The notes below the pieces were generated by a model. The model worked only from the letters and a program-made list of their open reading frames with translations, did not search any database and had not been told where the DNA came from. A stretch of DNA of 64,000 nucleotides, from assembly GCA_964016885.1 (NCBI GenBank), contig OZ024744.1:15128001-15192000 (forward strand). Reading direction: 5' to 3'. Source of the DNA: Eledone cirrhosa (lineage: Eukaryota). Below, in pieces: positions 13,877-60,949 of the stretch. Positions within the stretch are counted from its first letter, which is position 1; each line of letters starts with the position of its first letter. The position numbers and the translations under genes are program-made.

Positions 13877-13948
13877 TATATATATATATATTTATATATA
13901 AGCTTATGAATGACACACAAACTTTTATAAAATTAATAAAAATATCAC

Positions 13949-14039
13949 CTTAATAATTTCCTCGAGGGTATTCATGGATTCATCCTTAGCTATGATGAAT
14001 TTTCCTTGATAATTGCCATCAGCAATATTTTGGATAATC
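13949..14039 (-). CDS. AK7: AK7-like coding exon (4th in window): (A)IIQNIADGNYQGKFIIAKDESMNTLEEIIK
   Basis: ttatttattttag|G...AAG|gtgata; 91 nt, phase 2/0, completing the GC|G codon from exon 22601-22686. Resembles AK7 VIQNVID..VAVDESVHTLEDIVK (recalled). Confidence 0.88.
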
Positions 14040-14227
14040 CTAAAATAAATAAAGAAACAGTGAAAAAGGAAACAGGTACCAGTCTGTATTGATGAAAACA
14101 ATCAAAGGTGGTCTTGCAGTAATTTCAAAGAGGAAGCTTCTCATACTCAACTATACACACACACAAAGACATGCACACGCTTGTGCACATGCACACACAC
14201 ACATACGTGTATATATGTGAACATGAC

Positions 14228-14352
14228 TTGACTTTCGCTTTTCCATGTTTGCATGGGTTGGCCAGGTGTTTTCCTGCACAACTTCCCTCCACTTATCTCC
14301 TTCCTTTGTCATCTCCTCTATGAACAATTTGAGATCAGCTATCACCACCTCT
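14228..14352 (-). mobile_element. RTE LINE 3' terminus attached to the 43-bp satellite
   Basis: Minus strand encodes EVVIADLKLFIEEMTKEGDKWREVVQENTWPTHANMEK, homologous to the termini at 6283-6420 and 58020-58140. Confidence 0.85.
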
Positions 14353-17300
14353 GCACTTCTTGAACTTCCTCTACAGTAGTTACTGGGATTTTCTGGCACT
14401 TCTTGGACTTCCTCTACAGTAGTTACTGGGATTTCCTGGCACTTCTTGGACTTCCTCTACAGTAGTTACTGGGATTTCCTGGCACTTCTAGGACTTCCTC
14501 TACAGTAGTTACTGGGATTTCCTGGCACTTCTAGGACTTCCTCTACAGTAGTTACTGGGGTTTCCTGGCACTTCTTGGACTTCCTCTACAGTAGTTACTG
14601 GGATTTCCTGGCACTTCTTGGACTTCCTCTACAGTATTTCACTGGTATTTCCTGGCACTCCTTGAACTTCCTCTAGTGTAGACACTGGGATTTCCTAGCA
14701 CTTCTTAGACTTCTTCTACTGTAGTCACTGGGATTTTCTGGCACTTCTTAGTATTCCTCTACAGTAGTCACTGGGATTTCCTGGCACTTCTTGGACTTCC
14801 TCTACTGTAGTCACTGCGATTTCCTGGCACTTCTTGGACTTCCCCTACAGTATTTCATTGGGATTTCCTGCCACTTCTTAGACTCCCTCTACTGTAGTCA
14901 CTGGAATATCCTGGCACTTCTTGGACTTCCTCTACTGTAGTCACTGGTATTTCCTGGCACTTCTTGGACTTCCTCTACTGTAGTTACTGGGATTTCCTGC
15001 CACTTCTTAGACTTCCTCTACTGTAGTCACTGGAATATCCTGGCACTTCTTGGACTTCCTCTACTGTAGTCACTAGTATTTCCTGGCACTTCTTGGACTT
15101 CCTCTACTGTAGTTACTGGGATTTCCTGCCACTTCTTAGACTCCCTCTACTGTAGTCACTGGAATATCCTGGCACTTCTTGGACTTCCTCTACTGTAGTC
15201 ACTGGTATTTCCTGGCACTTCTTGGACTTCCTCTACTGTAGTTACTGGGATTTCCTGGCATTTCTTAGACTTCCTCTACTGTAGTCACTGGAGTTTCCTG
15301 GCACTTCTTGGACTTCCTCTACAGTATTTCATGGGATTTCCTGGCACTTCCTGAACTTCCTCTACTGTATTTACTGGGATTTCCTGCCACTTCTTAGACT
15401 CCCTCTACTGTAGTCACTGGAATATCCTGGCACTTCTTGGACTTCCTCTACTGTAGTCACTGGTATTTCCTGGCACTTCTTGGACTTCCTCTACTGTAGT
15501 TACTGGGATTTCCTGGCATTTCTTAGACTTCCTCTACTGTAGTCACTGGAGTTTCCTGGCACTTCTTGGACTTCCTCTACAGTATTTCATGGGATTTCCT
15601 GGCACTTCCTGAACTTCCTCTACTGTATTTACTGGGATATCCTGGCACTTCTTAGACTTCCTCTACTGTAGACACTGGAATTTCCTGGCACTTCTTGGAC
15701 TTCTTATACAGTATTTCACTGGGATTTTCTGGCATTTCTTAATCTTCCTCTACGGTAGTCACTGGGTTTTCCTGGCATTTCTTGGACTTCCCCTACAGTA
15801 TTTCAATGGTATTTCCTGCCACTTCTTAGACTTCCTCTACTGTAGTCACTGGGATTTCCTGGCACTTCTTGGACTTCCGCTACAGTATTTCCCTGGGATT
15901 TCCTGGCACTTCTTGGACTTTCTCTACTGTAGACACTGGGTTTCCTGGCACTTCTTAGACTTCCTCTACTGTAGACACTGGGATTTCCTGGCACTTCTTA
16001 GACTTCCTCTACTGTAGTCACTGGTATTTCCTGGCACTTCTTGGACTTCCTCTACTGTAGTCACTGCGATTTCCTGGCACTTCTTGAACTTCCCCTACAG
16101 TATTTCACTGGGATTTCCGGCCACTTCTTAGACTTCCTCTACTGTAGTCACTGGAATTTCCTGGCACTTCTTGGTCTTCCTCTACTGTAGTCACTGGGGT
16201 TTCCTGGCACTTCTTGGACTTTCTCTTCAGTATTTCATGGGATTTCCTGGCACTTCCTGAACTTCCTCCACTGTAGTTACTGGGATTTCCTGGCACTTCT
16301 TGGACTTCCTCTACTGTAGACACTGGGATTTCCTGGCACATCTTAGACTTCCTCTACTGTAGTTACTGGGATTTCCTGGCACTTGTTGAACTTCCTCTAC
16401 AATATTTCACTGGGATTTCTGGCCACTTCTTAGACTTCCTCTACTGTAGTCACTGGAATTTCCTGGCACTTCTTGGACTTCCTCTACTGTAGACACTGGG
16501 ATTTCCTGGCACTTCTAGGACTTCCTCTACTGTAGTCACTGGGATTCCCTGGCACATCTTGGACTTCCTCTACTGTAGACACTGGGATTTCGTGGCACTT
16601 CTTGGACTTCCTCTACTGTAGTCACTGGGATTTCCTGGCACTTCTTGGACATCCTCTACAGTATTTCATTGGAATTTCCTGGCACTTCTTAGACTTCTTC
16701 TACTGTAGTCACTGGGATTTCCTGGCACTTCTTGGACTTCCTCTACTGTAGATACTAGGATTTCCTGGCACTTCTTGGACTTCCTCTACTGTAGTTACTG
16801 GGATTTCCTGGCACTTCTTGAACTTCCCCTACAGTATTTCACTGGGATTTCCGGCCACTTCTTAGACTTCCTCTACTGTAGTCACTGGAATTTCCTGGCA
16901 CTTCTTGGTCTTCCTCTACTGTAGTCACTGGGGTTTCCTGGCACTTCTTGGACTTTCTCTTCAGTATTTCATGGGATTTCCTGGCACTTCCTGAACTTCC
17001 TCCACTGTAGTTACTGGGATTTCCTGGCACTTCTTGGACTTCCTCTACTGTAGACACTGGGATTTCCTGGCACATCTTAGACTTCCTCTACTGTAGTTAC
17101 TGGGATTTCCTGGCACTTGTTGAACTTCCTCTACAATATTTCACTGGGATTTCTGGCCACTTCTTAGACTTCCTCTACTGTAGTCACTGGAATTTCCTGG
17201 CACTTCTTGGACTTCCTCTACTGTAGACACTGGGATTTCCTGGCACTTCTAGGACTTCCTCTACTGTAGTCACTGGGATTCCCTGGCACATCTTGGACTT

Positions 17301-20300
17301 CCTCTACTGTAGACACTGGGATTTCGTGGCACTTCTTGGACTTCCTCTACTGTAGTCACTGGGATTCCCTGGCACATCTTGGACTTCCTCTACTGTAGAC
17401 ACTGGGATTTCGTGGCACTTCTTGGACTTCCTCTACTGTAGTCACTGGGATTTCCTGGCACTTCTTGGACATCCTCTACAGTATTTCATTGGGATTTCCT
17501 GGCACTTCTTGAACTTCCTCTACTGTAGTCACTGGGATTTCCTGGCACTTGATGGACTTCCTCTACTGTAGTCACTGGGATTTCCTGGCCCTTCTTAGAC
17601 TTCCTCTACACTATTTCACTGGGATTTCTTGGCACTTCTTGGACTTCCTCTACCGTAGTCATTGGGATTTCCTGGCACATCTTAGACTTCCTCTACTGTA
17701 GTCACTGGGATTTCCTGGCACTTCTTGGACTTCCTCTACAGTATTTCACTGGGATTTCCTGGCACTTCAATGACTTATTCTACAGTAGTTACTGGGATTT
17801 CTTGGCACTTCCTGGACTTCCTCTACTGTAGTCATTGGGATTTCCTTGCACATCTTGGACTTCCTCTACTGTAGTCACTAGGATTTTTTGGCACTTCTTG
17901 GACTTCCTCTACTGTAGTCACTGGGATTTCCTGGCACTTTTTGGACTTCCTCTACTGTAGTCACTGGGATTTCCTGGCACTTCTTGAACTTCCTCTACCG
18001 TTGTCATTGGGATTTCCTGGCACATCTTAGACTTCCTCTACTGTAGTCACTGGGATTTCCTGGCACTTCTTGGACTTCCTCTACTGTAGTCACTGGGATT
18101 TCCTGGCACTTCTTGTACTTCCTCTACTGTAGTCACTTGGATTACCTGGCACTTCTTGGTCTTCCTCTACAGTATTTCATTGTGATTTCCTGGCACTTCT
18201 TGAACTTCCTCTACTGTAGTCACTGGAATTTCTTGGCACTCCTTGGACTTCCTCTAATGTAGTCATTTTGATTTTCTGGCACATCTTAGACTTCCTCTAC
18301 AGTAGTTACTGTGATTTCCTGGCACTTCTTAGTCTTCCTCTACTATAGTCACTGGGATTTCCTGGCACTTCTTGGTCTTCTTCTACTGTAGTCACTGGGA
18401 TTTCCTGGGACCTCATGGACTTCCTCTACTGTAGTCACTGGCATTTCCTGGCACTTCTTCGACTTCCTCTACAGTATTTCACTGGGATTTCCTGGCACTT
18501 CTTGGACTTCCTCTACAGTATTTCATTGGAATTTCCTGGCACTTCTTAGACTTCTTCTACTGTAGTCACTGGGATTTCCTGGCACTTCTTGGACTTCCTC
18601 TACTGTAGATACTAGGATTTCCTGGCACTTCTTGGACTTCCTCTACTGTAGTTACTGGGATTTCCTGGCACTTATTGGAATTTCTCTACTGTAGTCACTG
18701 GGATTTCCTGGCACTTCCTAGACTTCCTCTACTGTAGTCACTAGGATTTCCTGGCGCTTCTTAGACTTCCTCTACTGTAGTTAATGGGAATTCCTGGCAC
18801 TTATTGGACTTCCTCTACTGTAGTCACTGTATTTCCTGGCACTTCTTAGACTTCCTCTACAGTATTTCACTGGGATTTCCTGGCACTTCTTGGACTTCCT
18901 CTACTGTAATTACTGGGATTTCCTGCCGCTTCTTGCTCTTCCTTGCCAGTATTTCACTGGGATATCCTGGCATTTCTTAGTCTTCCTCTACAGTATTTAA
19001 CTGGTATTTCCTGGCACTTCTTAGACTATTTCTACAGTATTTCACTGGGATTTCCTGGCATTTCTTGGACTTCCTCTACTGTTGTCACTGGGATTTCCTG
19101 GCACTTCTTACTATTCTTCTACTGTAGTCACTGTATTTCCTGGCACATCTTAGACTTCCTCTACTGTATTTCACTGGGATTTCCTGGCACTTCTTGGTCT
19201 TCCTCTACAGTATTTCACTGGGATTTCCTGGCATTTCTTAGTCTTCCTCTACAGTATTTCACTGGGATTTCCTGGCACTTCTTGGACCTCCTCTACAGTA
19301 TTTAACTGGGATTTCCTGGCACTTCTTAGTCTTCCTCTACAGTATTTCACTGGGATTTCCTGGCACTTCTTGGTTTTCCTCTACAGTATTTCACTGGTAT
19401 TTCCTGGGACTTCTTAGTCCTCCTCTAAAGTATTTCACTACTGTAGTCATTGGGACTTCCTGGCACTTCTTAGACTTCTTCTACTGTAGTCACTGGGATT
19501 CAACTGGCACTTCTTGGTCCTCTTCTACTGTAGTCACTGGGATTTCCTTGCACTACTTTGACTTCCTCTACTGTAGTGACTGGGATATCCTGGCACTTCT
19601 TAGACTTCCTCTACTGTAGTTACTGGTATTTCCTGGCACTTCTTGGACTTCCTCTACTGTAGTCACTGGGATTTCCTGGCACTTCTTGGACTTCCTCTAC
19701 TGTAGTCACTGGGATTTCCTGGCACTTCTTGGACTTCCTCTACAGTATTTCACTGGGATTTCCTGGGACTTCATGGACTTCCTCTACAGTATTTCACTGG
19801 GATTTCCTGGAACTTCTTAGACTTGCTCTACAGTATTTTGCTGGGATTTCCTGGCACTTCTTGGTTTTCCTCTACAGTATTTCACTGGGATTTCCTGGCA
19901 CTTCCTAGTCCTCCTCTAAAGTATTTCACTGGGATTTCCTTGCACTTCTTGGTCTCCCTCTACTGTAGTCACTGGGATTTCCTGGCACTTCTTGGTCTTC
20001 CTCTACTGTAGTCACTGCAATTTCTTGTCACATCTTAGTCTCCCTCTACAGTATTTCACTGGGATTTCCTGGCACTTATTGGACTTCCTCTACAGTATTT
20101 CACTGGGATTTCCTGGAACTTCTTAGACTTGCTCTACAGTATTTTGCTGGGATTTCCTGGCACTTCTTGGACTTCCTCTACTGTAGTCACTGGGATTTCC
20201 TGGCACTTCTTGGACTTATACAGTATTTCACTGGGATTTCCTGGCACTTCTTGGACTTCCTCTACTGTAGTCACTGGGATTTCCTGGCACTTCTTGGTCT

Positions 20301-21812
20301 TCCTCTACAGTATTTCACTGAGATTTCCTGGCACTTCTTGGTCTTCCTCTACAGTATTTCACTGGGATTTCCTGGCACTTCTTAATCTTCATCTACTGTA
20401 GTTACTGGGATTTCCTGGCACTTCTTAGTCTTCCTCTACAGTATTTCACTCGGACTTTCTGGCACTTCTTGGTCTTCCTCTACAGTATTTCACTGGGATT
20501 TCCTGGCACTTCTTGGTCTTCCTCTACTGTAGTTACTGGGATTTCCTGGCACTTCTTGGACATCCTCTACTGTAGTCACTGGGATTTCCTGGCACTTCTT
20601 GGACTTCCTCTACTGTAGTCACTGGGATTTCCTGGCACTTCTTGGTCCTCCTCTACAGTATTTCACTGGGATTTCCTGGCACTTCTTAATCTTCATCTAC
20701 TGTAGTTACTGGGATTTCCTGGCACTTCTTAGTCTTCCTCTACAGTATTTCACTCGGATTTTCTGGCACTTCTTGGTCTTCCTCTACAGTATTTCACTGG
20801 GATTTCCTGGCACTTCTTGGTCTTCCTCTACTGTAGTTACTGGGATTTCCTGGCACTTCTTGGACTTCCTCAACTGTAGTCACTGGGATTTCCTGGCACT
20901 TCTTGGACTTCCTCTACTGTAGTCACTGGGATTTCCTGGCACTTCTTGGTCCTCATCTACTGTAGTCACTGGGATTTCCTTGCACTTCTTTGACTTCCTC
21001 TACTGTAGTGACTGGGATATCTTGGCACTTCTTAGACTTCCTGTACTGTAGTTACTGGTATTTCCTGGCACTTCTTGGACTTCCTCTACTGTAGTCACTG
21101 GGATTTCCTGGCACTTCTTGGACTTCCTCTACAGTATTTCACTGGGATTTCCTGGGACTTCATGGACTTCTTCTACTGTAGTCACTAGGATTTCCTGGCA
21201 CTTCTTGGACTTCCTCTACTGTAGTCACTGGGATTTCCTGGCACTTCTTGGACTTCCTCTACTGTAGTCATTGGGATTTCCTGGCACTTCTTGGACTTCC
21301 TCTACTGTAGTCACTGGGATTTCCTGGCACTTCTTGGTCTTCCTCTACTGTAGTTAGTGTGATTTCCTGGCACTTCTTGGACTTCCTCTACTGTAGTCAT
21401 TGGGATTTCCTGGCACTTCTTGGACTTCCTCTACTGTAGTCATTGGGATTTCCTGGGACTTCATGGACTTCTTCTACTGTAGTCACTCGGATTTCCTGGC
21501 ACTTCTTGGTCTTCCTCTACTGTAGTCACTGGGATTTCCTGGCACTTCTTGGACTTCCTCTACTGTAGTCACTCGGACTTCTTGGACTTCATCTACTGTA
21601 GTCACTGGGATTTCCTGGCACTTCTTGGACTTCCTCTACTGTAGTCACTGGTATTTTCTGGCACTTGTTAGTCTTCCTCTACAGTATTTCACTGGGATTT
21701 ACTGGCACTTCTTAGTCTTCTTCTACTGTAGTTACTGGGATTTTCTGGCACTTCTTGGACTTCCTCTACAGTATTTCACTGGGATTTCCTGGCACTTCTT
21801 GGACTTCCTCTA
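14353..21812. repeat. 43/44-bp tandem satellite, ~170 copies, RTE-coding-derived
   Basis: Consensus ctgggatttcctggcacttcttggacttcctctactgtagtca (43 bp), with a 44-bp variant ...tacagtatttca. A 734-bp higher-order duplication is shown by identical ORFs at 16105 and 16839. Confidence 0.97.
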
Positions 21813-21884
21813 GTATTGTCAATACAACAAAGAATAGTAACATGATTGAAAATAGATAAATAATCATGAGATATTTTAAACCTG

Positions 21885-22160
21885 GTGAATTGGGAGAATC
21901 ATTAGAGCATCAAATGAAATCATTTGCTGTATTTGTTCTGGTTCCTAATATTCTGGGCTCAACTCCCAAGATTGTCTCTGCCTTTTATCCTGTTAATTGA
22001 CTTTCCCCCAAAAAATGCTGGCCTTGAGCCTAAATTAAATACCAGTTCAAATCCCGCCGAGGTTAACTTTGCCTTTCATCCTTACCGGGTCTATAAAATA
22101 AAGTACCAGTAATACACTGGGTAATTGCTGGCCTTGTGCCAAATGTAGAAACAATTATTT
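21885..22160 (+). mobile_element. Degenerate Nin/Deu-like SINE fragments
   Basis: gttcaaatcccgccgaggttaactttgcctttcatcc...taaaataaagtaccagtaatacactggg...gtagaaacaattatt matches 11850-11965. Confidence 0.7.
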
Positions 22161-22269
22161 TATTTTTGTCCTTTTATATTTTGAGTTTGAATCCTACTAA
22201 GGTCATTTTTAGCTGTTTTTTATTCCAGGTTTGATAAAAAAAAAGTACCAGTGGTACTTATGTTCATAA

Positions 22270-22500
22270 TGTAGGTTTGATTCCTTGACCTGGTTGTGTG
22301 TTGTGTTCTTGAGCAAAACATTTCATTTCAAGTTGCTCCAGTATACTCAACTGAAAATGAGTACCAGCAATGGCTGAGGATTTAACCCTGCGATGGACTA
22401 GCGTCCTGTCCAGTGGGGAGTCTTGTACCCTAAGTCACTTAATGTCACAAAACCAGAATAAGCACTGGCCTGATGAGCCTGCTGGCTTGAGACAGACTTA
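22270..22500 (+). mobile_element. tRNA-derived SINE with a CORE/Meta-like domain followed by a V-domain-like segment
   Basis: B-box-like ggtttgattcc; gtgttcttgagcaaaac; aaccctgcgatggactagcgtcctgtccag resembles the V-SINE central domain (recalled). Confidence 0.65.
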
Positions 22501-22600
22501 ATTAAGTACTGGTGTCAATATAATTAGTGATATTACTCTTGCAAACAGGTATGCGTGGCCTCGGTCAGAAATCAATGATCATAAAATGTGGTTTACTTAC

Positions 22601-22686
22601 GCAGCAAGATCTTGTATGTGAATTGTGGGCACAACATTATTTCCACTCCCAATACATTTCAAGACAGGATCATTGTGCCAAGCATT
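22601..22686 (-). CDS. AK7: AK7-like coding exon (3rd in window): NAWHNDPVLKCIGSGNNVVPTIHIQDLA
   Basis: tttcattcatag|AAT...GC|gtaagt; 86 nt, phase 0/2. Resembles AK7 AWLG..FGDGTNVIPTIHVLDLA (recalled). Confidence 0.9.
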
Positions 22687-23205
22687 CTATGAATGAAACA
22701 GGACAAAGTAAATATTCAAGAGGAGATGAAGAGGAAAGGGAGATATTCAGAATGTTTATATATATAACCAATGTTAATACAAAAAAAAAAAAAAATATAT
22801 GACAGATGTCCCGCCGCCACCAGAAGAGGATTGTTCTCTCTACTAAAGCAAAAATTAGCCCTGTAGGCACCCATGACAAACCTGTTTATTTCGCCCTATA
22901 GTCTGCATCACATTTCATCAATCCTTGACTTTCATTTACTCATGTCTTTCTTAGTCTTCCACATTTATTTCCATCACTCCTCACACCCAGTCATCCTTCC
23001 TTAATACACGATTAAATTGTTTCATTCCATTACCATAAGTCCTCAGTTTAGAACAGGTACACAACATTTTCACATCTTGTAAGATATGACTAGAAAGATA
23101 TCTGCCAGGAAAGGTATCTGGTAATAAAAAATTACCCCAAAGGCAGTCATAGTTCTATTTTATCTTTTTTTTAAAAGTTTCATGGAGTGGAGGATGTTAA
23201 TCCAC

Positions 23206-23364
23206 ATCATCCTCATCCTCATCTTGTTTAACGTCCATCTTCCATGCTAGCATAGATAGGACGGGCTGTCCCTTTGTGAGGGATCAGGTCGGGGGACAGT
23301 GATTCGCACACACAGAAATGATTTTAGCTTGGTTTCTATGGCTGGATGTCATTCCTAATGCCAA
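23206..23364 (-). mobile_element. RTE/SINE 3' end attached to the 48-bp satellite
   Basis: Degenerate (cat)n tail, aacgtccatcttccatgctagc, and gcttggtttctatggctggatgtcattcctaatgccaacc, which matches the reverse complement of 4860-4900, 62355-62400 and 63520-63565. Runs directly into the first monomer. Confidence 0.88.
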
Positions 23365-26300
23365 CCACATTTACAGTGTGGACTGGGTATTTTTGTCATG
23401 ACACCTACATGACCACTTTACAGTGTGGACTGGGTGCTTTTTGTTGTGACACCTACATGACCACTTTACAGTGTGGACTGGGTGCTTTTTGTTGTGACAC
23501 CTACATGACCACTTTACAGTGTGGACTGGGTGCTTTTTGTTGTGACACCTACATGACCACTTTACAGTGTGGACTGGGTGCTTTTTGTTGTGACACCTAC
23601 ATGACCACTTTACAGTGTGGACTGGGTGCTTTTTGTTGTGACACCTACATGACCACTTTACAGTGTGGACTGGGTGCTTTTTGTTGTGACACCTACATGA
23701 CCACTTTACAGAGTGGACTGGGTACTTTTTGTTGTGACACCTACACAACCACTTTACAGTGTGGACTGGGTACTTTTTGATGTGACACCTACATGACCAC
23801 TTTACAGTGTGGACTGGGTACTTTTTGTTGTGACACCTAGATGACCACTTTACAGTGTGGACTGGGTACTTTTTGTTGTGACACCTACATGACCACTTTA
23901 CAGTGTGGACTGGGTACTTTTTGATGTGACACCTACATGACCACTTTACAGTGTGGACTGGGTAGTTTTTGTTGTGACACCTACATGACCACTTTACAGT
24001 GTGGACTGGGTACTTTTTGTTGTGACACCTACATGACCACTTTACAGTGTGGACAAGGTACTTTTTGTTGTGACACCTACATGACCATTTTACAGTGTGT
24101 ACTGGGTACTTTTTGTTGTGACACCTACATCACCACTTTACAGTGTGACTGGGTAGTTTTTGTTGTGACACCTACATGACCACTTTACAGTGTGGACTGG
24201 GTACTTTTTGTTGTGACACCTACATGACCACTTTACAGTGTGGACTGGGTGCTTTTTGTTGTGACACCTACATGACCACTTTACAGTGTGGACTGGGTAG
24301 TTTTTGTTGTGACACCTACATGACCACTTTACAGTGTGGACTGGGTACTTTTTGTTGTGACACCTACATGACCACTTTACAGTGTGGACTGGGTGCTTTT
24401 TGTTGTGACACCTACACAACCACTTTACAGTGTGGACTGGGTAGTTTTTGTTGTGACACCTACATGACCACTTTACAGTGTGGACTGGGTACTTTTTGTT
24501 GTGACACCTACATGACCATTTTACAGTGTGGACTGGGTGCTTTTTGTTGTGACACCTACATGACCACTTTACAGTGTGGACTGGGTACTTTTTGTTATGA
24601 CACCTACATGACCACTTTACAGTGTGGACTGGGTAGTTTTTGTTGTGACACCTACATGACCACTTTACAGTGTAGACTGGGTAGTTTTTGTTGTGACACC
24701 TCCATCACCACTTTACAGTGTGGACTGGGTGTTTTTGTTGTGACACCTACATGACCACTTTACAGTGTGGACTGGGTACTTTTTGTTTTGACACCTACAT
24801 GACTTTACAGTGTGGACTGAGTACATTTTGTTGTAACACCTACATTACCACTTTACAGTGTGGACTGGGTACTTTTTGTCGTGACACCTACATGACCACT
24901 TTACAGTGTGGACTAGGTACTTTTGTCATGACACCTTCATGAGCACATTTACAGTGTGGACTGGGTGTTTTTGTTGTGACACCTACATGACCACTTTACA
25001 GTGTGGACTGGGTACTTTTTGTTGTGACATCTACATGACAACTTTACAGTGTGGACTGGATACTTTTTGTCATGACACCTACATGACCAATTTACAGTGT
25101 GGGCTGGGTGTTTTTGTTGTGACACATACATGACCACTTTACAGTGTGGACTGGGTACTTTTTGTTGTGACACCTACATGACCACTTTACAGTGTGGACT
25201 GGGTACTTTTTGTTGTGACACCTACATGACAACTTTACAGTGTGGACTGGATACTTTTTGTCATGACACCTTCATGACCACTTTACAGTGTGGACTGGGT
25301 ACTTTTGTTGTGACACCTACATGACCACTTTACAGTGTGGACTGAGTACTTTTTGTTGTGACACCTACATGACCACTTTACAGTGTGGACTAGGTACTTT
25401 TATCATGACACCTTCATGACTACATTTACAGTGTGGACTGGGTGTTTTTGTTGTGACACCTACACAACCACTTTACAGTGTGGACTGGGTGTTTTTGTTA
25501 TGACACCTACATGACCACCTTACAGTGTGGACTGGGTACTTTTTCACATGACACCTACATGACCACTTTACAGTGTGGACTGGGTACTTTTGTCATGACA
25601 CCTTCATGACCACATTTACAGTGTGGACTGGGTCCTCTTCGTCATGACACCAACATGACCACTTTACAGTGTGGACTGGGTCCATTTTGTCATGACACCT
25701 ACATGACCACTTTACAGTGTGGACTGGGTACTTTTTGTCATGACACCTTCATGACCACATTTACAGTGTGGACTGGGTGTTTTTGTTGTGACACCTACAT
25801 GACCACTTTACAGTGTGGACTGGGTACTTTTTGTCATGACACCTACATCACCACTTTACAGTGTGGACTAGGTACTTTTGTCATGACACCTACATGATCA
25901 CTTTACAGTGTGGACTGGGTATTTTTTGTCATGACACCTTTATGACCACATTTACAGTGTGGACTGGGTGTTTTTGTTGTGACACCTACACAACCACTTT
26001 ACAGTGTGGACTGGGTACTCTTTGCTGTGACACCTACATGACCACTTTAAAGTGTGGACTGGGTACTTTTTGTTGTGACACCTACATGAGCACTTTACAG
26101 TGTGGACTGGGTACTTTTTGTTGTGACACATACATGACCACTTTACAGTGTGGACTGGGTACTTTTTGTTGTGACACCTACATGACCACTTTACAGTGTG
26201 GACTGGGTACTGTTTGTTGTGACACCTACATGACCACTTTACAGTGTAGACTGTGTACTTTTTGTCGTAACACCTACATCACCTCTTTACAGTGTGAGCT

Positions 26301-47300: not shown

Positions 47301-50300
47301 TTTGTCATGACACATACATGACCACTTTACAGTGTGGACTGGGTACTTTTTGTCGTGACACCTACATGACCACTTTACAGTGTGGACTGGGTACTTTTTG
47401 TTATGACACCTACATGACCACTTTACAGTGTAGACTGGGTAGTTTTTGTTGTGACACCTCCATCACCACTTTACAGTGTGGACTGGGTGTTTTTGTTGGG
47501 ACACCTACATGACCACTTTACAGTGTGGACTGGGTACTTTTTGTTGTGACACCTACATGACCACTTTACAGTGTGGACTGAGTACATTTTGTTGTAACAC
47601 CTACATGACCACTTTACAGTGTGGACTGGGTACTTTTTGTCGTGACACCTACATGACCACTTTACAGTGTGGACTAGGTACTTTTGTCATGACACCTTCA
47701 TGAGCACATTTACAGTGTGGACTGGGTGTTTTTGTTGTGACACCTACATGACCACTTTACAGTGTGGACTGGGTACTTTTTGTTGTGACATCAACATGAC
47801 AACTTTACAGTGTGGACTGGGTACTTTTTGTTGTGACACCTACATCACCACTTTACAGTGTGGACTGGGTGCTTTTGTCATGACATCTTCATGACCACTT
47901 TACAGTGTGGACTGGGTAGTTTTTGTCATGACACCTACATGACCACTTTATAGTGTGGACTGGGTACTTTTTGTCATGACACCTACATGACCACTTTAGA
48001 GTCTGGACTGGGTGCTTTTGTCATGACACCTACATGACCACTTCACAGTGTGGACCGGGTACTTTTTGTCGTGACACCTACATGACCACTTTACAGTGTG
48101 GACTGGGTACTTTTTGTTGTGACACCTACATGACCACTTTACAGTGTGGACTGGGTACGTTTTGTTGTGACACCTACATGACCACTTTACAGTGTGTACT
48201 GGGTACTTTTTGCTGCGACACCTACATGACCACTTTACAGTGTGTACTGGGTACTTTTTGTTGTGACACCTACATGACCACTTTACAGTGTGGACTGGGT
48301 ACTTTTTGTCATAACACCTACATAACCACTTTACAGTATGGACTGGGTACGTTTTGTCATGACACCTACATGACCACTTTACAGTGTGCACTGGGTACTT
48401 TTGTTGTGACACATACATGATCACTTCACATTGTGGACTGGGTACATTTTGTCATGACACCTACATGACCACTTTAGAGTGTGGACTGGGTGCTTTTGTC
48501 ATGACACCTCCATGACCACTTTACAGTGTGGACTGGGTAGTTTTTGTCATGACACCTACATGACCACTTTACAGTGTGGACTGGGTACTTATTGTCATGA
48601 CACCAACATGACCACTTTACAGTGTGGACTGGGTACTTTTTGTCATGACACCTACATGACCACTTTACAGTGTGGACTGGGTCTTTTTGTTGTGACACCT
48701 TCATAACCACTTTACAGTGTGGACTGGGTACTTTTTGTTGTGACACCTGCATGACCACTTTACAGTGTGGACTGGGTACTTTTGTTGTGACACCTACATG
48801 ACCACTTTACAGTGTGGACTGGGTACTTTTTGTCATAACACCTACATGACCACTTTACAGTGTGGACTGGGTACTTTTTGTCATGATACCTTCATGACCA
48901 CTCTAGAGTGTGGACTGGGTGCTTTTGTCATGACACCTTCATGACCACTTCACAGTGTGGACTGGGTACTTTTTGTCGTGACCTACATGACCACTTTACA
49001 GTATGGACTGGGTACTTTTTGTTGTGACACCTACATGACCACATTACAGTGTGGACTGGGTACTTTTTGTTGTGACACCTAGATGACCACTTTACAGTGT
49101 GCACTGGGTACTTTTGTTGTGACACATACATGATCACTTTACAGTGTGGACTGGGTACTTTTTGTCATGACACCTACATGACCACTTTACAGTGTGGACT
49201 GGGTACTTTTTGCTGTGACACCTACATGACCACTTTACAGTGTGGACTGGGTAGTTTTTGTCATAACACCTACATGACCACTTTACAGTATGGACTGGAT
49301 ACTTGTTGCCATGACAAATACATGACCACTTTACAGTGTGGACTGGGTACTTTTTGTCATGACACCTACATGACCACTTTACAGTGTGGACTGGGTACTT
49401 TTTGTCATGACACCTACATGACCACTTTACAGTGTGGACTGGGTAGTTTTTGTCATAACACCTACATGACCACTTTACAGTATGGACTGGATACTTGTTG
49501 CCATGACAAATACATGACCACTTTACAGTGTGGACTGGGTACTTTTTGTTGTGACACCTGCATGACCACTTTACAGTGTGCACTGGGTACTTTTTGTTGT
49601 GGCACCTACATGACCACTTTACAGTGTGGACTGGGTAGTTTTTGTCATAACACCTACATGACCACTTTACAGTATGGACTGGATACTTGTTGCCATGACA
49701 AATACATGACCACTTTACAGTGTGGACTGGGTACTTTTTGTTGTGACACCTGCATGACCACTTTACAGTGTGCACTGGGTACTTTTTGTTGTGGCACCTA
49801 CATGACCACTTTACAGTATGGACTGGGTACTTTTTGCCATGACACGTACATGACCACTTTACAGCGTGGAGTGGGTGTTTTTGTTGTGACACCTACATGA
49901 CGCCTTTACAGTGTGGACTGGTAACTTTTGTCATGACACCTACATGACCACTTTACAGTGTGGACTGGGTACTTTTTGTCATGACACATACATGACCACT
50001 TTACAGTGTGGACTGGGTACTTTTTGTCGTGACACCTACATGACCACTTTACAGTGTGGACTGGGTACTTTTTGTTATGACACCTACATGACCACTTTAC
50101 AGTGTAGACTGGGTAGTTTTTGTTGTGACACCTCCATCACCACTTTACAGTGTGGACTGGGTGTTTTTGTTGGGAGACCTACATGACCACTTTACAGTGT
50201 GGACTGGGTACTTTTTGTTGTGACACCTACATGACCACTTTACAGTGTGGACTGAGTACATTTTGTTGTAACACCTACATGACCACTTTACAGTGTGGAC

Positions 50301-53300
50301 TGGGTACTTTTTGTCGTGACACCTACATGACCACTTTACAGTGTGGACTAGGTACTTTTGTCATGACACCTTCATGAGCACATTTACAGTGTGGACTGGG
50401 TGTTTTTGTTGTGACACCTACATGACCACTTTACAGTGTGGACTGGGTACTTTTTGTTGTGACATCTACATGACAACTTTACAGTGTGGACTGGATACTT
50501 TTTGTCATGACACCTACATGACCAATTTACAGTGTGGGCTGGGTGTTTTTGTTGTGACACCTACATGACCACTTTACAGTGTGGACTGGGTACTTTTTGT
50601 TGTGACACCTACATGACCACTTTACAGTGTGGACTGGGTACTTTTTGTTGTGACACCTACATGACCACTTTACAGTGTGGACTGGGTGCTTTTGTCATGA
50701 CATCTTCATGACCACTTTACAGTGTGGACTGGGTAGTTTTTGTCATGACACCTACATGACCACTTTATAGTGTGGACTGGGTACTTTTTGTCATGACACC
50801 AACATGACCACTTTACAGTGTGGACTGGGTCCTTTTTATCATGACACCTACATGACCACTTTACAGTGTGGACTGGGTGTTTTTGTTGTGACACCTACAT
50901 GACCACTTTACAGTGTGGACTGGGTACTTTTGTTGTGACACCTACATGACCACTTTACAGTGTGCACTGGGTACTTTTGTTGTGACACATACATGACCAC
51001 TTTACAGTGTGGGCTGGGTACTTTTTGTCATGACACCTACATGACCACTTTAGAGTGTGGACTGGGTGCTTTTGTCATGACACCTACATGACCACTTCAC
51101 AGTGTGGACTGGGTACTTTTTGTCGTGACACCTACATGTCCACTTTACAGTGTGTACTGGGTACTTTTTGCTGTGACACCTACATGACCACTTTACAGTG
51201 TGGACTGGGTACTTTTTGTTGTGACACCTACATGACCACTTTACAGTGTGGACTGGGTACGTTTTGTTGTGACACCTACATGACCACTTTACAGTTTGTA
51301 CTGGGTACTTTTTGCTGTGACACCTACATGACCACTTTACAGTGTGTACTGGGTACTTTTTGTTGTGACACCTACATGACCACTTTACAGTGTGGACTGG
51401 GTACTTTTTGTCATAACACCTACATAACCACTTTACAGTATGGACTGGGTACTTTTTGTCATGACACCTACATGACCACTTTACAGTGTGCACTGGGTAC
51501 TTTTGTTGTGACACATACATGATCACTTCACATTGTGGACTGGGTACATTTTGTCATGACACCTACATGACCACTTTAGAGTGTGGACTGGGTGCTTTTG
51601 TCATGACACCTCCATGACCACTTTACAGTGTGGACTGGGTAGTTTCTGTCATGACACCTACATGACCACTTTACAGTGTGGACTGGGTACTTATTGTCAT
51701 GACACCAACATGACCACTTTACAGTGTGGACTGGGTACTTTTTGTCATGACACCTACATGACCACTTTACAGTGTGGACTGGGTCTTTTTGTTGTGACAC
51801 CTTCATAACCACTTTACAGTGTGGACTGGGTACTTTTTGTTGTGACACCTACATGACCACTTTACAGTGTGGACTGGGTACTTTTTGTCATAACACCTAC
51901 ATGACCACTTTACAGTGTGGACTGGGTACTTTTTGTCATGATACCTTCATGACCACTCTAGAGTGTGGACTGGGTGCTTTTGTCATGACACCTTCATGAC
52001 CACTTCACAGTGTGGACTGGGTACTTTTTGTCGTGACCTACATGACCAATTTACAGTATGGACTGGGTACTTTTTGTTGTGACACCTACATGACCACATT
52101 ACAGTGTGGACTGGGTACTTTTTGTTGTGACACCTAGATGACCACTTTACAGTGTGCACTGGGTACTTTTGTTGTGACACATACATGATCACTTTACAGT
52201 GTGGACTGGGTACTTTTTGTCATGACACCTACATGACCACTTTACAGTGTGGACTGGGTACTTTTTGCTGTGACACCTACATGACTACTTTACAGTGTGG
52301 ACTGGGTAGTTTTTGTCATAACACCTACATGACCACTTTACAGTATGGACTGGATACTTGTTGCCATGACAAAAACATGACCACTTTACAGTGTGGACTG
52401 GGTACTTTTTGTCGTGACACCTACATGACCACTTTACAGTGTGGACTGGGTACTTTTTGTTATGACACCTACATGACCACTTTACAGTGTAGACTGGGTA
52501 GTTTTTGTTGTGACACCTCCATCACCACTTTACAGTGTGGACTGGGTGTTTTTGTTGGGAGACCTACATGACCACTTTACAGTGTGGACTGGGTACTTTT
52601 TGTTGTGACACCTACATGACCACTTTACAGTGTGGACTGAGTACATTTTGTTGTAACACCTACATGACCACTTTACAGTGTGGACTGGGTACTTTTTGTC
52701 GTGACACCTACATGACCACTTTACAGTGTGGACTAGGTACTTTTGTCATGACACCTTCATGAGCACATTTACAGTGTGGACTGGGTGTTTTTGTTGTGAC
52801 ACCTACATGACCACTTTACAGTGTGGACTGGGTACTTTTTGTTGTGACATCTACATGACAACTTTACAGTGTGGACTGGATACTTTTTGTCATGACACCT
52901 ACATGACCAATTTACAGTGTGGGCTGGGTGTTTTTGTTGTGACACCTACATGACCACTTTACAGTGTGGACTGGGTACTTTTTGTTGTGACACCTACATG
53001 ACCACTTTACAGTGTGGACTGGGTACTTTTTGTTGTGACACCTACATGACCACTTTACAGTGTGGACTGGGTGCTTTTGTCATGACATCTTCATGACCAC
53101 TTTACAGTGTGGACTGGGTAGTTTTTGTCATGACACCTACATGACCACTTTATAGTGTGGACTGGGTACTTTTTGTCATGACACCAACATGACCACTTTA
53201 CAGTGTGGACTGGGTCCTTTTTATCATGACACCTACATGACCACTTTACAGTGTGGACTGGGTGTTTTTGTTGTGACACCTACATGACCACTTTACAGTG

Positions 53301-55755
53301 TGGACTGGGTACTTTTGTTGTGACACCTACATGACCACTTTACAGTGTGCACTGGGTACTTTTGTTGTGACACATACATGACCACTTTACAGTGTGGGCT
53401 GGGTACTTTTTGTCATGACACCTACATGACCACTTTAGAGTGTGGACTGGGTGCTTTTGTCATGACACCTACATGACCACTTCACAGTGTGGACTGGGTA
53501 CTTTTTGTCGTGACACCTACATGTCCACTTTACAGTGTGTACTGGGTACTTTTTGCTGTGACACCTACATGACCACTTTACAGTGTGGACTGGGTACTTT
53601 TTGTTGTGACACCTACATGACCACTTTACAGTGTGGACTGGGTACGTTTTGTTGTGACACCTACATGACCACTTTACAGTTTGTACTGGGTACTTTTTGC
53701 TGTGACACCTACATGACCACTTTACAGTGTGTACTGGGTACTTTTTGTTGTGACACCTACATGACCACTTTACAGTGTGGACTGGGTACTTTTTGTCATA
53801 ACACCTACATAACCACTTTACAGTATGGACTGGGTACTTTTTGTCATGACACCTACATGACCACTTTACAGTGTGCACTGGGTACTTTTGTTGTGACACA
53901 TACATGATCACTTCACATTGTGGACTGGGTACATTTTGTCATGACACCTACATGACCACTTTAGAGTGTGGACTGGGTGCTTTTGTCATGACACCTCCAT
54001 GACCACTTTACAGTGTGGACTGGGTAGTTTCTGTCATGACACCTACATGACCACTTTACAGTGTGGACTGGGTACTTATTGTCATGACACCAACATGACC
54101 ACTTTACAGTGTGGACTGGGTACTTTTTGTCATGACACCTACATGACCACTTTACAGTGTGGACTGGGTCTTTTTGTTGTGACACCTTCATAACCACTTT
54201 ACAGTGTGGACTGGGTACTTTTTGTTGTGACACCTGCATGACCACTTTACAGTGTGGACTGGGTACTTTTGTTGTGACACCTACATGACCACTTTACAGT
54301 GTGGACTGGGTACTTTTTGTCATAACACCTACATGACCACTTTACAGTGTGGACTGGGTACTTTTTGTCATGATACCTTCATGACCACTCTAGAGTGTGG
54401 ACTGGGTGCTTTTGTCATGACACCTTCATGACCACTTCACAGTGTGGACTGGGTACTTTTTGTCGTGACCTACATGACCAATTTACAGTATGGACTGGGT
54501 ACTTTTTGTTGTGACACCTACATGACCACATTACAGTGTGGACTGGGTACTTTTTGTTGTGACACCTAGATGACCACTTTACAGTGTGCACTGGGTACTT
54601 TTGTTGTGACACATACATGATCACTTTACAGTGTGGACTGGGTACTTTTTGTCATGACACCTACATGACCACTTTACAGTGTGGACTGGGTACTTTTTGC
54701 TGTGACACCTACATGACTACTTTACAGTGTGGACTGGGTAGTTTTTGTCATAACACCTACATGACCACTTTACAGTATGGACTGGATACTTGTTGCCATG
54801 ACAAATACATGACCACTTTACAGTGTGGACTGGGTACTTTTCGTTGTGACACCTGCATGACCACTTTACAGTGTGCACTGGGTACTTTTTGTTGTGGCAC
54901 CTACATGACCACTTTACAGTATGGACTGGTTACTTTTTGCCATGACACGTACATGACCACTTTACAGCGTGGAGTGGGTGTTTTTGTTGTGACACCTACA
55001 TGACGCCTTTACAGTGTGGACTGGTAACTTTTGTCATGACACCTACATGACCACTTTACAGTGTGGACTGGGTACTTTTGTCATGATACCTTCATGACCA
55101 CTTTATAGTGTGGACTGGGTACTTTTTGTCATGACACCTACATGACCACTTTACCGTGTGGACTGGGTACTTTTTATCATGACACCAACATGACCACTTC
55201 ACAGTGTGGACTGGGTCCTTTTTGTCATGACACCTACATGACCACTTTACAGCGTGGACTGGGTGTTTTTGTTGTGACACCTACATGACCACTTTACAGT
55301 GTGGACTGGGTGCTTTTGTCATGATACCTACATGACCACTTTACAGTGTGGACTGGTTGCTTTTGTCATGATACCTTCATGACCACTTTACAGTGTGGAC
55401 TGAGTAGTTTTTGTCATGACACCTACGTGACCACTCTACCGTGTGGACTGGGTACTTTTTGTTGTGACATCTACATGACCACTTTACAGTGTATATTGGG
55501 TACTTTTTGTCATAACACCTACATGTCCACTTTACAGTGTGGACTGGGTACTTTTTGTTGTGACACCTACATGACCACTTTACAGTGTGGACTGGGTACT
55601 TTTGTTGTGATACCTACATGACCACTTTACAGTGTGGACTGGGTGATTTTTGTTGTGACACCTACATGACCACTTTACAGTGTGGACTGAGTACTTTTGT
55701 CGTGACACCTACATGACCACTTTACAGCGTGGACTGGGTACTTTTTGTTGTGACA
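23365..55755. repeat. 48-bp tandem satellite, ~32.4 kb (~675 copies), with nested higher-order repeats
   Basis: Consensus gtggactgggtactttttgt(tg/ca)tgacacctacatgaccactttacagt. Identical ORF-track translations recur at offsets of 766, 1953, 1476, 4390/4581, 2674 and 2385 bp. Confidence 0.98.
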
Positions 55756-56009
55756 GTTTTGAGTTGTATTGAGTGTAATAGGGGTAAATTTAGTGAGTAG
55801 TTGAGTTGTTTTATATGCAAGTTAGATTTAGATGAGTGACATGTTTGATTTCAGTACTGCAGTTATGTTGTATATTATTGGCATGATGCAAAATTAACAA
55901 CTGCTTTAATTTTTAGTTAATTTAATTAGCATCTGCTTTTTATTTTTATTTAGTTGGTGTTATATTGTAACAACCTTCTGAAGCACTTCAGCTCAAATGA
56001 CTGGATTCT

Positions 56010-56420
56010 TTGTTCCATGTCAGCTGTGAAAATGCAACTCTCACACCCATAAAAAAGGATTGAAGTCATTTGAGAAGAGATGCTTCAGAATGTTACTACA
56101 GATCCCATACATCCCATACATGGAGCACAAAACAAACAGCTTTGTCAGACAATAAGTTAACACATATGCTGACAGGAATCATTGATGGTGAGAAGACAGA
56201 AGCTTGGCTGGTATGATCTTTGGTCATATATCCCGCCACAACTCCTTGTCTAAAACCATCCTTCAGGACATATTTGAGGGAGGGTGAAAAAGAGGCAGAC
56301 AAAGAAAATCCTGGTCCAACAACATCAAAGACTGGACTGGTCACAACACTGAGACCTTTATACGCCAGACGGAGAATAGAGATCAATGTTGATAACTGAC
56401 TGTAAAAGTGTCTAGAGTGG
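56010..56420 (+). mobile_element. BovB-like RTE 3' fragment (a different family from the other RTEs here)
   Basis: Degenerate FEKRCFRMLLQIPY..EHKTN..FGHISRHNSLSKTILQ..EG..KRGRQRKSWSNNIKDWTG..ENRDQ. Confidence 0.8.
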
Positions 56421-57170
56421 CACACCAATGACTAGCTGCACTAATGGCACATCTAGAGTGACACCCCAAAGAAAAGCTGCACCAGTGGCACATCTAGAGA
56501 GGCACCCCAATGACTGGCTGCACCAGTGGCACCCGAATGACTAGCTGTACCAGTGGCACATCTAGAGTAGAACCCCAACTACTGGCTGTACCAGTGGCAC
56601 ATCTAGAGTGGCACCCCAATGACTGGCTGTACTGCTGGCACATCTAGAGTAGCACCCCAACTACTGACTGTACCAGTGGCACAGCAAGAATGTCACCCCA
56701 ATGATTGGCTGTACCAGTGGCACATCTAGAGAGGCATCCCAATGACTGGGTGTACCAGTGGCACATCTAGTGTGGAACCCCAAAGACAAGCTGCACCTGT
56801 CGCACATCTAGAGAGGCACTCCAACGACTGGCTGTACCAGTGGCACAGCAAGAATGTCACCCCAAAGACAAGCTGCAACAGTGGCACATCTAGAGTGGCA
56901 CTCCAAAGACTGGCTGTACCAGTGGCACAGCAATAATGTCACCCCAATGACTGACTGCACCAGTGGCACATCTAGAGAGGCACCTAATGACTGGCTGTAG
57001 CTGTACCAGTGGCACATCTAGAGAGGCACTCCAATAACTGGCTGTAGCTGTACCAGTGGCACATCTAGAGAGGCACTCCAATGACTGGCTGTACCAGTGG
57101 CACAGCAATAATGTCACCCCAAAGACTGGTTGCACAAGTGGCACATCTAGAGTGGGACCCCAAAGACTGA
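56410..57170. repeat. ~41-bp minisatellite, ~18 diverged copies, continuous with the RTE C-terminus
   Basis: Unit tctagagtggcaccccaatgactggctgtaccagtggcaca. Confidence 0.92.
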
Positions 57171-57384
57171 TAGCACCATTGTGGGAATCAATAAATATTA
57201 GAATCAATAAAAACGGTTATTAATTTTGCAACAGTCAAATATAAAAGACTCATGATAGATTCTGATGAGAGTAACAAAGTAATTTTAGTGGGATAGTGAG
57301 GTGGGGGAGTATAAAGATTAGGGAGATGATTTTATGCAGTTCAGGTGTTTGGTAGTACAGGGCAGATTTTAGTGGGTGTAGCCT

Positions 57385-58557: not shown

Positions 58558-58641
58558 CTTAAACCAATAATGAAAAATATCTTCTTTGCCACCATATGTT
58601 GCTCCAATTGTAACAATACACGTCTGTAATTTCTTCTTTGT
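58558..58641 (-). CDS. AK7: AK7-like coding exon (2nd in window): TKKKLQTCIVTIGATYGGKEDIFHYWFK
   Basis: atatttcag|ACA...AAG|gtgagt; 84 nt, phase 0/0. Resembles AK7 [21 protein letters not shown] (recalled). Confidence 0.87.
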
Positions 58642-60769: not shown

Positions 60770-60838
60770 TTTAAATTGATTAAATTAAGTAAATACATAA
60801 CAAACTAAAAATATTATTCCCAGAACTAAGCACATTAC

Positions 60839-60949
60839 CCCTTTGCCAAGTTTTATGACAGTCTTCTCGGCATTGATGTGTTCCTTAAAGTTTGGATGTG
60901 GTCTTCTTCGGCGGTAATCATCTCTGGTGAAAGGGATATCAGGCTCATC
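60839..60949 (-). CDS. AK7: AK7-like coding exon (1st in window): [37 protein letters not shown]
   Basis: ttgtttattgtag|GAT...GGG|gtaatg; 111 nt, phase 0/0. Strongly resembles AK7 [33 protein letters not shown] (recalled). Confidence 0.92.

What the first reader, a model, noticed from the sequence alone, without database searches (positions are those of the whole stretch)
14228..57170. Three independent tandem arrays from three RTE-related termini in one gene: a possible retroelement-driven satellite-forming process
Seen: the 43-bp array (14353-21812), 48-bp array (23365-55755) and 41-bp array (56410-57170) have unrelated monomers of similar size. Each is contiguous with an RTE-type end, and each unit is delimited by short direct repeats (aagaa, cactgYaaa, agtggcac). 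The two large arrays share one architecture: intact 3' tail, ~125-160 bp of element, then the array, then no further element sequence. Established: non-LTR RTs start cDNA at the RNA 3' end and can slip or jump templates. Inference: the RT may have copied a short direct-repeat-bounded template segment reiteratively during TPRT (loosely telomerase-like), seeding arrays that later grew by unequal exchange. Post-insertion DNA slippage plus deletion is the simpler alternative and cannot be excluded here.
Basis: partly seen in the sequence, partly recalled or inferred. Interest (0 to 1): 0.8.

Follow-up and report, generated by a model that had tools for sequence, protein, structure and literature searches.

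The report
Satellites grown from retrotransposon 3' ends
Three long tandem repeats in the introns of an adenylate kinase 7 gene are built from 41-48-base pieces of old retrotransposon ends and contain large duplicated DNA blocks, so they are likely an ordinary case of mobile elements seeding satellite DNA rather than a new reverse-transcriptase mechanism.

Summary
The three arrays are real (43 bp x ~173, 48 bp x ~679, 41 bp x ~18). They lie in introns of an AK7 gene, and each unit is a piece of the 3' end of an RTE-type LINE or its SINE-shared tail. The two large arrays are one-sided (element end, array, abrupt mid-unit end). The tail is decayed in the first, no target-site duplication exceeds chance, and the third array has the opposite polarity. 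Growth was at the DNA level: 481 of 678 units of the 48-bp array lie in exact duplicated blocks of 10 or more units (longest 68; shuffled order 2-4), and six identical units sit beside a decayed tail. The 43-bp unit carries a frameshifting 7-nt deletion and seems private to this locus. The 48-bp segment is also tandem at other loci and in a second organism. One-sided SINE-derived satellites are already described in reptiles, in both polarities, and short direct repeats are the classical slippage signature. Seeding by a reiterating reverse transcriptase is not excluded (about 12%), but nothing requires it. Verdict: new members of a known kind.

The parts
14228..14352 (-). Decayed 3' end (ORF end and short 3' UTR) of an APE+RT+PHD LINE; parent of array 1
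   Evidence: 73-82% identical to three in-window copies (58% to a fourth); two 6-nt deletions; no (GAT)n tail
14353..21812 (-). Array 1: 43-bp unit x ~173, from the ORF C-terminal KC-x11-GRP segment minus 7 nt
   Evidence: mean 7.4% from the majority unit; one exact 12-unit block duplicated (16080/16814)
23205..23363 (-). 3' UTR and (GAT)n-like tail shared by the LINE family and a SINE; parent of array 2
   Evidence: 72-76% identical to four in-window copies; flank-to-tail junction bridged by X2 record 15 and X3 record 23
23364..55755 (-). Array 2: 48-bp unit x ~679; segment between two natural imperfect direct repeats of the 3' UTR; nested block duplications of 31-97 units
55963..56058 (-). 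Inverted piece of the array-3 parent, partly duplicating the start of the + piece (resembles a twin-priming 5' inversion)
   Evidence: tblastn with P0001, E 3e-10; overlap 51 of 69 nt identical
56055..56410 (+). Broken C-terminal ORF of a second, distantly related RT LINE (BovB-like by recalled motifs); parent of array 3
   Evidence: P0001, 45% identity, E 2e-19
56411..57177 (+). Array 3: 41-bp compound unit (27+14 bp) beginning at the last codons of the ORF
   Evidence: mean 11.6% from majority, 18.8% pairwise; recurring two-unit variant
60836..60949 (-). AK7 exon
   Evidence: phmmer to adenylate kinase 7, E 4e-12
58559..58640 (-). AK7 exon (approximate bounds)
   Evidence: open frame with AG/GT splice context; assignment rests on position between matched exons
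22595..22686 (-). AK7 exon between arrays 1 and 2
   Evidence: only AK7 chains hit, E 0.09 and 0.41, residues 233-259; present in organism A (X1 record 7)
13947..14040 (-). AK7 exon downstream of array 1
   Evidence: open frame and splice context; identity as AK7 is recalled, not searched
9168..9331 (-). Independent 89-bp x1.8 duplication holding the same segment as the array-2 unit, upstream of the ORF of another LINE copy
   Evidence: score 50 against null 15.3+-2.6

Best explanation
The three arrays are retrotransposon-derived satellites: each unit is a 41-48-bp piece of a LINE or SINE 3' end, likely first duplicated by DNA slippage or unequal exchange at short internal repeats, then enlarged by single-unit and kilobase block duplication. 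Shown: the source segments, the hybrid repeat at array 2's junctions, and block-wise DNA growth. Inferred: array 1 was born at this locus after its parent decayed (private 7-nt deletion in the unit) and later lost its distal element part. Array 2 belongs to a multi-locus family of element copies with tandem 44-49-bp units. Its one-sided form would follow from 5' truncation inside a source that already had several units, or from later deletion. In that case the RT dispersed the seed but did not make it. [quoted passage not shown]
For: Block duplication: 481 of 678 full A2 units lie in exact duplicated blocks of 10 or more units; longest 68 units against 2-4 in 20 shuffled orders; a 97-unit tandem block (35680-40308/40261-44889) differs by 5 nt; A1 has a 12-unit exact block against 1-2 shuffled. 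Variants are mostly shared: singletons are 19 of 2122 variant cells in A2 and 37 of 548 in A1. Six identical units (23416-23703) adjoin a decayed tail; the chance of 288 unchanged nt is 2e-4 at 3% divergence and 8e-10 at 7%, so single-unit reiteration occurred after insertion. The A1 unit has 9 nt where 5 of 6 in-window relatives have 16 and the sixth has lost all 16; 13 of the 14 intact relatives with the Cys, among 25 rows printed, have 11 residues to GRP. Summed contig depth on the A1 unit is 522 (X2) and 248 (X3) against single-copy 6 and 3.5, but 15.5 in organism A and 0.02 in RAD reads, as expected of a locus-private array. On the A2 unit it is millions in both organisms. Joints imply 44-49-bp tandems with letters absent from this array (7 of 7 joints with inserted letters had 0 exact matches). 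X1 record 8 and X2 record 16 are other copies with element body plus about two units, 16-19% diverged. Precedent: PMC10702118, PMC4432496, PMC3389668, PMC6947457, PMC7004042.
Against: Both large arrays keep the 3' side and end mid-unit distally, which TPRT-coupled models predict directly; a DNA-only origin of A1 needs an extra deletion. Three of 7 arrays with units of 40 bp or more sit at LINE 3' ends, which are 12.3% of non-array DNA (P 0.045, post hoc), so 3' ends may be favoured. A3's divergence (19% pairwise) is not clearly lower than that of its parent's inverted duplication (26%, n=69), so A3 could date from about the time of insertion. The order of deletion and insertion for A1 is by parsimony only. 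The true subfamily consensus is unknown. Only 2 of the 7 variant joints have a listed side length. Summed depth is not a copy number, and X2/X3 may be the assembly's own sample.
Confidence: 0.72

Rival explanations
1. The LINE reverse transcriptase re-copied a 40-50-nt internal segment bounded by direct repeats several times during TPRT and then stopped. This seeded short arrays that later grew by unequal exchange.
For: Tail side retained and mid-unit distal ends in 2 of 2 large arrays. RT slippage lengthens simple repeats in RTE 3' ends (PMC2887409, passages). The A3 parent has what looks like an RT-level rearrangement, and A3 may be as old as it. Weak 3'-end enrichment, P 0.045.
Against: No TSD above chance (A1 best 9 nt with 1 mismatch, P 0.19, 27 bp beyond the array; A2 P 0.39), though six control copies also gave only 5-8 nt exact matches. 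A1's unit carries a frameshifting deletion, and its tail-side junction is also altered. A3 has the opposite polarity. Squamate SINE satellites retain either end (PMC10702118). De novo LAVA integrants showed no VNTR change against their source (PMC4432496). Three of 7 arrays in the window have no LINE link.
Confidence: 0.12
2. The arrays were copied in from other loci by ectopic repair (gene conversion or break-induced replication) that started in the old element's tail homology and ended by end-joining, removing the 5' element part and the TSD.
For: Array-2-type tandems exist at other loci and the segment is extremely abundant. One-sided form and missing TSDs fit. Element bodies are only 72-82% like their closer in-window relatives, while those are 91% like each other.
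Against: No donor is visible for array 1: depth stays within what the local array supplies. No microhomology is evident at the distal junctions. No donor locus was identified for array 2.
Confidence: 0.11
3. The arrays, or most of their length, are assembly artefacts (falsely duplicated blocks).
For: Kilobase blocks in A2 are 99.9-100% identical. No read data span the arrays.
Against: 161 distinct units among 678 (A2) and 120 among 172 (A1); nested blocks with 1-10 differences.
Confidence: 0.05

Closest known systems
SINE-derived satellites (sSat) of squamate reptiles (Vassetzky et al. 2023, PMC10702118; parts 1-4 of 5 read)
   Same: Unit is a sub-segment of a retroposon; arrays of a few to about 1000 units; element sequence extends to the terminus on one side only; locus-specific higher-order variants; some families multi-locus, others single-locus.
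   Different: Units here are 41-48 bp (there about 70-290). Two of three come from LINE coding ends rather than SINEs. Different animal group (probably a cephalopod; recalled resemblance, untested). Subtelomeric position is untested.
Alu- and other TE-derived minisatellites born at 5-10-bp direct repeats (Haber-Louis model, as described in PMC3389668 and PMC6947457; passages read)
   Same: Unit bounded by short direct repeats of the parent; local expansion after insertion; hot segments within an element.
   Different: Most human cases have only two units; these arrays reach 7.5 and 32 kb and have lost one side of the element.
SVA/LAVA VNTR (PMC4432496, PMC12593883; passages read)
   Same: About 40-50-bp units inside a non-LTR element; microhomology-driven remodelling at the DNA level; 5' truncation common.
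   Different: There the VNTR is a fixed, functional part of an active family. Here the in-window family copies have one unit and the arrays dwarf the element.
LINE-derived satellites: cetacean common satellite (L1 3' end), chicken HinfI (CR1 ORF2/3' UTR), PROsat; Ogre 3' UTR satellites (PMC9659126 passages; PMC7004042 abstract)
   Same: Satellite units from LINE ORF ends or retrotransposon 3' UTRs; short element-internal arrays that sometimes expand.
   Different: Other element clades and mostly longer units; no RTE case appeared in that review (0 occurrences of the term).
RTE-generated microsatellites in Lepidoptera (Tay et al. 2010, PMC2887409; passages read)
   Same: RTE 3' ends as a source of tandem repeats; RT slippage proposed.
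   Different: Those are simple repeats at the terminus between TSDs. These are 41-48-bp units, 125-160 bp inside the end for arrays 1 and 2, with no TSD.

Membership tests
TE-derived minisatellite/satellite (sSat-type) | Unit homologous to a sub-segment of an interspersed element | tested here: met
   A1, A2; A3 begins at the motif matching P0001's last residues
TE-derived minisatellite/satellite (sSat-type) | Head-to-tail array of at least 4 internal units | tested here: met
TE-derived minisatellite/satellite (sSat-type) | Terminal unit extended by element sequence on one side | tested here: met
   A1 and A2 on the 3' side, A3 on the 5' side
TE-derived minisatellite/satellite (sSat-type) | Homogenisation and higher-order structure by DNA duplication | tested here: met
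TE-derived minisatellite/satellite (sSat-type) | Subtelomeric or heterochromatic location | not testable with these tools
   no genome held; the arrays are intronic in AK7
Haber-Louis minisatellite | 5-10-bp direct repeat bounding the unit in the parent | tested here: inconclusive
   A2 met (8 of 9 nt in two of three relatives); A1 5 nt, chance level; A3 parent unit unavailable
RTE-clade non-LTR retrotransposon (parents) | Single ORF of about 1000-1100 aa with AP endonuclease and RT | tested here: met
   Pfam RVT_1 1.6e-32, Exo_endo_phos_2 2.6e-8 and PHD on the 136-2974 copy; the best relatives are 1040-1100-aa proteins with the same domains
RTE-clade non-LTR retrotransposon (parents) | Short 3' UTR ending in a short tandem repeat | tested here: met
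   (GAT)n tails in in-window copies; decayed in the A1 parent, not identified for A3
RTE-clade non-LTR retrotransposon (parents) | RT phylogeny with named RTE references | not tested
   hits carried no clade names; the labels RTE and BovB-like rest on architecture and recall
RT-slippage tail repeats / telomerase-like reiteration | Repeats enclosed by target-site duplications | tested here: inconclusive
   no TSD above chance, but none in six control copies either
RT-slippage tail repeats / telomerase-like reiteration | Short unit at the extreme 3' terminus | tested here: not met
   units of 41-48 bp, 125-160 bp inside the end for A1 and A2
RT-slippage tail repeats / telomerase-like reiteration | Units diverge independently from one template (star-like) | tested here: not met
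   shared variants and block duplications dominate; this tests growth, not the seed
RT-slippage tail repeats / telomerase-like reiteration | Concatemeric cDNA from a single-unit RNA | not testable with these tools
   needs an RT assay

The most novel reading that the evidence does not exclude
RTE-type reverse transcriptase reiteratively copies 40-50-nt direct-repeat-bounded segments near its RNA's 3' end during integration, so that these elements seed satellites genome-wide, and the 48-bp family spans at least two species by this route.
Probability: 0.12. Interest if true: 0.75.

Novelty: new member of a known kind. Interest (0 to 1): 0.3.

Why it matters
As most likely read, the locus is a clear but ordinary example of retroelement ends seeding satellites: 41 kb of intronic DNA in a conserved axonemal gene, with parents visible in the same window. 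It extends the one-sided sSat pattern beyond reptiles and to LINE coding ends. It also points to a multi-locus 48-bp family, shared by two organisms, that a long-read genome could use to ask how the first duplication arises; one human survey left that step unexplained for 94% of TE-derived repeats (PMC3389668). If RT reiteration were shown, it would be a new route to satellite birth, linking LINE RTs to telomerase-like repeat synthesis.

Tried and rejected
No genome was held, so no census was possible. Rfam gathering scan: 0 matches, so no ribozyme explanation. A degenerate pattern for the 48-bp core found 0 matches in metagenome, viral and prokaryote contigs. TSD search: chance level. Hairpin potential of the three units: none below shuffles, P 0.15-0.79 in 6 of 6 folds. 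An edge-to-centre divergence or ancestral-state gradient was expected and not found: A2 bins show 3.0-3.5 differences except 1.9 in the first, and ancestral-like units lie mid-array. The first monomer split mis-cut array 1 and was replaced. I first read the 'goes back' joints as many different periods; one search showed that they are 44-49-bp tandems or two-unit wraps. Pfam found nothing on the short ORF ends at 14154, 57907 and 63003. Look-ups of earlier findings by place, by sequence and the first by words returned nothing. Paper searches listed no report of RTE-derived 41-48-bp satellites in cephalopods, nor of RT reiteration of internal units of this size; the library lacks most subscription journals. 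No supplements were read; the repeat library of PMC13282606 may already hold these units. X1's share of 0.11 is used only through the laid reads.
Full report
OBSERVATION. Tandem Repeats Finder gives arrays at 14353-21812 (43 bp, 172.5 copies; A1), 23364-55755 (48 bp, 678.8; A2) and 56411-57169 (41 bp; A3). Wrap-around alignment yields 172 and 678 full units, 7.4% and 6.5% from their majority units, and 17 near-full A3 units used for statistics, 11.6% from majority (one partial and one indel-rich row dropped). The three units are unrelated (P 0.56, 0.017, 0.053 among 21 comparisons). The host gene is adenylate kinase 7 on the minus strand: exon 60836-60949 hits AK7 at E 4e-12, exon 22595-22686 hits only AK7 chains, and two more exons have open frames and splice sites. 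A1 fills one intron; A2 and A3 share another. The organism is probably an octopus (recalled resemblance of its repeats; not tested). No genome was held.

PARENTS. The window holds several copies of a LINE with AP endonuclease, RT and PHD domains. Its best database relatives are single ORFs of about 1050 aa, an RTE-type architecture; no tree with named references was made. A1's unit is the ORF-terminal KC...GRP segment. It has 9 nt where 5 of 6 in-window copies have 16 (the sixth lost all 16), which is a frameshift: 13 of the 14 intact relatives with this Cys, among 25 rows printed, have 11 residues before GRP. The adjoining 125-bp body has two more 6-nt deletions and no (GAT)n tail, so it is decayed, not intact. 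A2's unit is the 3' UTR segment between two natural imperfect repeats 48-49 bp apart. Its junctions join the left part of the downstream repeat to the right part of the upstream one. This hybrid is expected from slippage by a DNA polymerase or by an RT alike. A3 follows a broken ORF end of a second LINE family (P0001, 45% identity, E 2e-19), starts at its last codons, and is built of 27- and 14-bp subunits.

ARCHITECTURE. A1 and A2 end mid-unit on the distal side, with no element match in the next 231 and 235 bp. At least two units therefore existed before the distal end was formed. No TSD exceeds chance (A1: 9 nt with one mismatch, P 0.19, 27 bp past the array; A2: P 0.39), but six control copies also gave only 5-8 nt exact matches, so the test is weak. 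A3 has the opposite polarity; about 20 nt after it may be the element's natural end (untested). Five-nt repeats at 35-55-bp spacing occur at 17-24 sites per kb of LINE DNA, so A1's boundary repeat is not evidence. Of 7 arrays with units of 40 bp or more, 3 adjoin LINE 3' ends (12.3% of non-array DNA; P 0.045, post hoc) and 4 lie in LINE-family DNA (45.9%; P 0.41); 3 have no LINE link. Arrays with shorter units were left out of this count.

GROWTH WAS AT THE DNA LEVEL. In A2, 481 of 678 units lie in exact duplicated blocks of at least 10 units. The longest has 68 units against 2-4 in 20 shuffled orders, and a 97-unit block repeats with 5 differences. A1 has an exact 12-unit block (shuffled 1-2). 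Singletons make up 19 of 2122 and 37 of 548 variant cells. Six identical units (23416-23703) adjoin A2's substituted tail; 288 unchanged bases are unlikely at even 3% divergence (2e-4), so single-unit reiteration continued after insertion without an RT. A3 repeats a two-unit variant four times. No edge gradient was found.

OTHER GENOMES. Seven runs were listed and four were laid on 21720-23470 at 80% likeness. Organism B contigs match the flank-to-tail junction of element 2 and the distal junction of A1 with 0 differences; the latter has only 30 letters on the array side, and the sample may be the assembly's source. Summed depth on A1's unit is 522 and 248 (single copy 6 and 3.5) but 15.5 in organism A and 0.02 in RAD reads. 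This is within what the local array supplies, so A1 looks locus-private; a diverged array in organism A would be missed. Depth on A2's unit is 4.7-6.7 million in both organisms. Joints at 48, 95, 80 and 81 are tandem continuations. Seven joints with inserted letters imply periods of 44-49 bp and have 0 exact matches in this array; two of them have listed sides of up to 46 and 64 letters, enough to show tandem units. X1 record 8 and X2 record 16 are copies with element body plus about two units, 16-19% diverged. The 48-bp segment is thus tandem at other loci and in a second organism. The same segment is also duplicated with an 89-bp period at 9168-9331. Summed depth is not a copy number, and 1821 joints were not shown.

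MECHANISM. Best reading (0.72): first duplication by DNA slippage or unequal exchange at short internal repeats, then local growth. A1 was probably born here after decay of its parent and later lost its distal element part (inferred by parsimony). A2 probably descends from a source that already had several units and was truncated within them, or lost its 5' part later (inferred). RT reiteration (0.12) explains tail retention and mid-unit ends directly. It is also compatible with A3, whose parent shows a 5' inversion with a short duplication like the twin-priming products described for L1 (10.1101/2024.08.27.596794 and PMC2912911, passages), and whose divergence (19%) is not clearly below that of this duplication (26%, n=69). 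Nothing requires it, however. Ectopic transfer (0.11) fits A2 but lacks a donor for A1. An artefact (0.05) could affect only the length.

KNOWN SYSTEMS. Squamate SINE-derived satellites mostly have element sequence up to the terminus on one side only, 5' or 3', and reach about 1000 units (PMC10702118, parts 1-4 of 5 read). Retention of a 5' end cannot come from 3'-primed truncation (inference), so one-sidedness does not identify an RT origin. Direct repeats of 5-10 bp are the classical slippage model of minisatellite birth (PMC3389668, passages and part 3 of 4; PMC6947457, passages). SVA/LAVA VNTRs are remodelled at microhomologies at the DNA level, and de novo integrants showed no change (PMC4432496, passages); another paper lists ORF2p slippage as a possibility (PMC12593883, passages). 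RT slippage is proposed for simple repeats in RTE tails (PMC2887409, passages). LINE-end and 3' UTR satellites are listed in PMC9659126 (passages) and PMC7004042 (abstract). PMC9115989 and PMC4758252 (passages) and PMC13282606 (part 1 of 3) gave background only. The searches named under Tried and rejected listed no account of these particular arrays. Supplements were not read.

VERDICT. The arrays are new members of a known kind; interest 0.3. The RT-seeding reading stays open at about 12% and is testable by a genome census.

Noticed in passing
window 55963-56130: The parent of array 3 has an inverted 5' piece that overlaps the start of the forward piece (51 of 69 nt identical). It resembles a twin-priming inversion with internal duplication in a non-L1 element; two separate insertions are not excluded.
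   Followed up: partly
window 9120-9345 (-): The segment that forms the array-2 unit also lies upstream of the ORF of another LINE copy, there duplicated with an 89-bp period; the same motif thus occurs at both the 5' and 3' sides of family members.
   Followed up: partly
window 6405-6445 (-): A sister LINE copy has a clean 16-nt deletion within the segment that forms the array-1 unit, where copy 12735 shows a direct repeat; the segment is slippage-prone.
   Followed up: partly
window 3251-3533, 57384-57554, 59773-60725: Three further minisatellites (59 bp x4.8, 47 bp x3.7, 78 bp x12.3) with no match to LINE sequence in the window; the region forms arrays readily.
   Followed up: partly
window 9938-10852 (-): Transposase-like reading frames resembling a mariner/Tc1 element (recalled resemblance; not searched).
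   Followed up: no
window 136-2974 (-): Near-complete LINE ORF in three frames with endonuclease, RT and a PHD finger after the RT; many unnamed relatives share this layout.
   Followed up: partly
window 21813-21820 and 55756-55763: The flanks at the two distal array junctions share 5 of 6 adjacent bases; n=2 and post hoc, probably chance.
   Followed up: no
window 22044-22160: A very abundant short interspersed repeat (summed depth 10-17 million in both organisms) with many go-back joints of about 115 bp, suggesting that it also forms tandems elsewhere.
   Followed up: no
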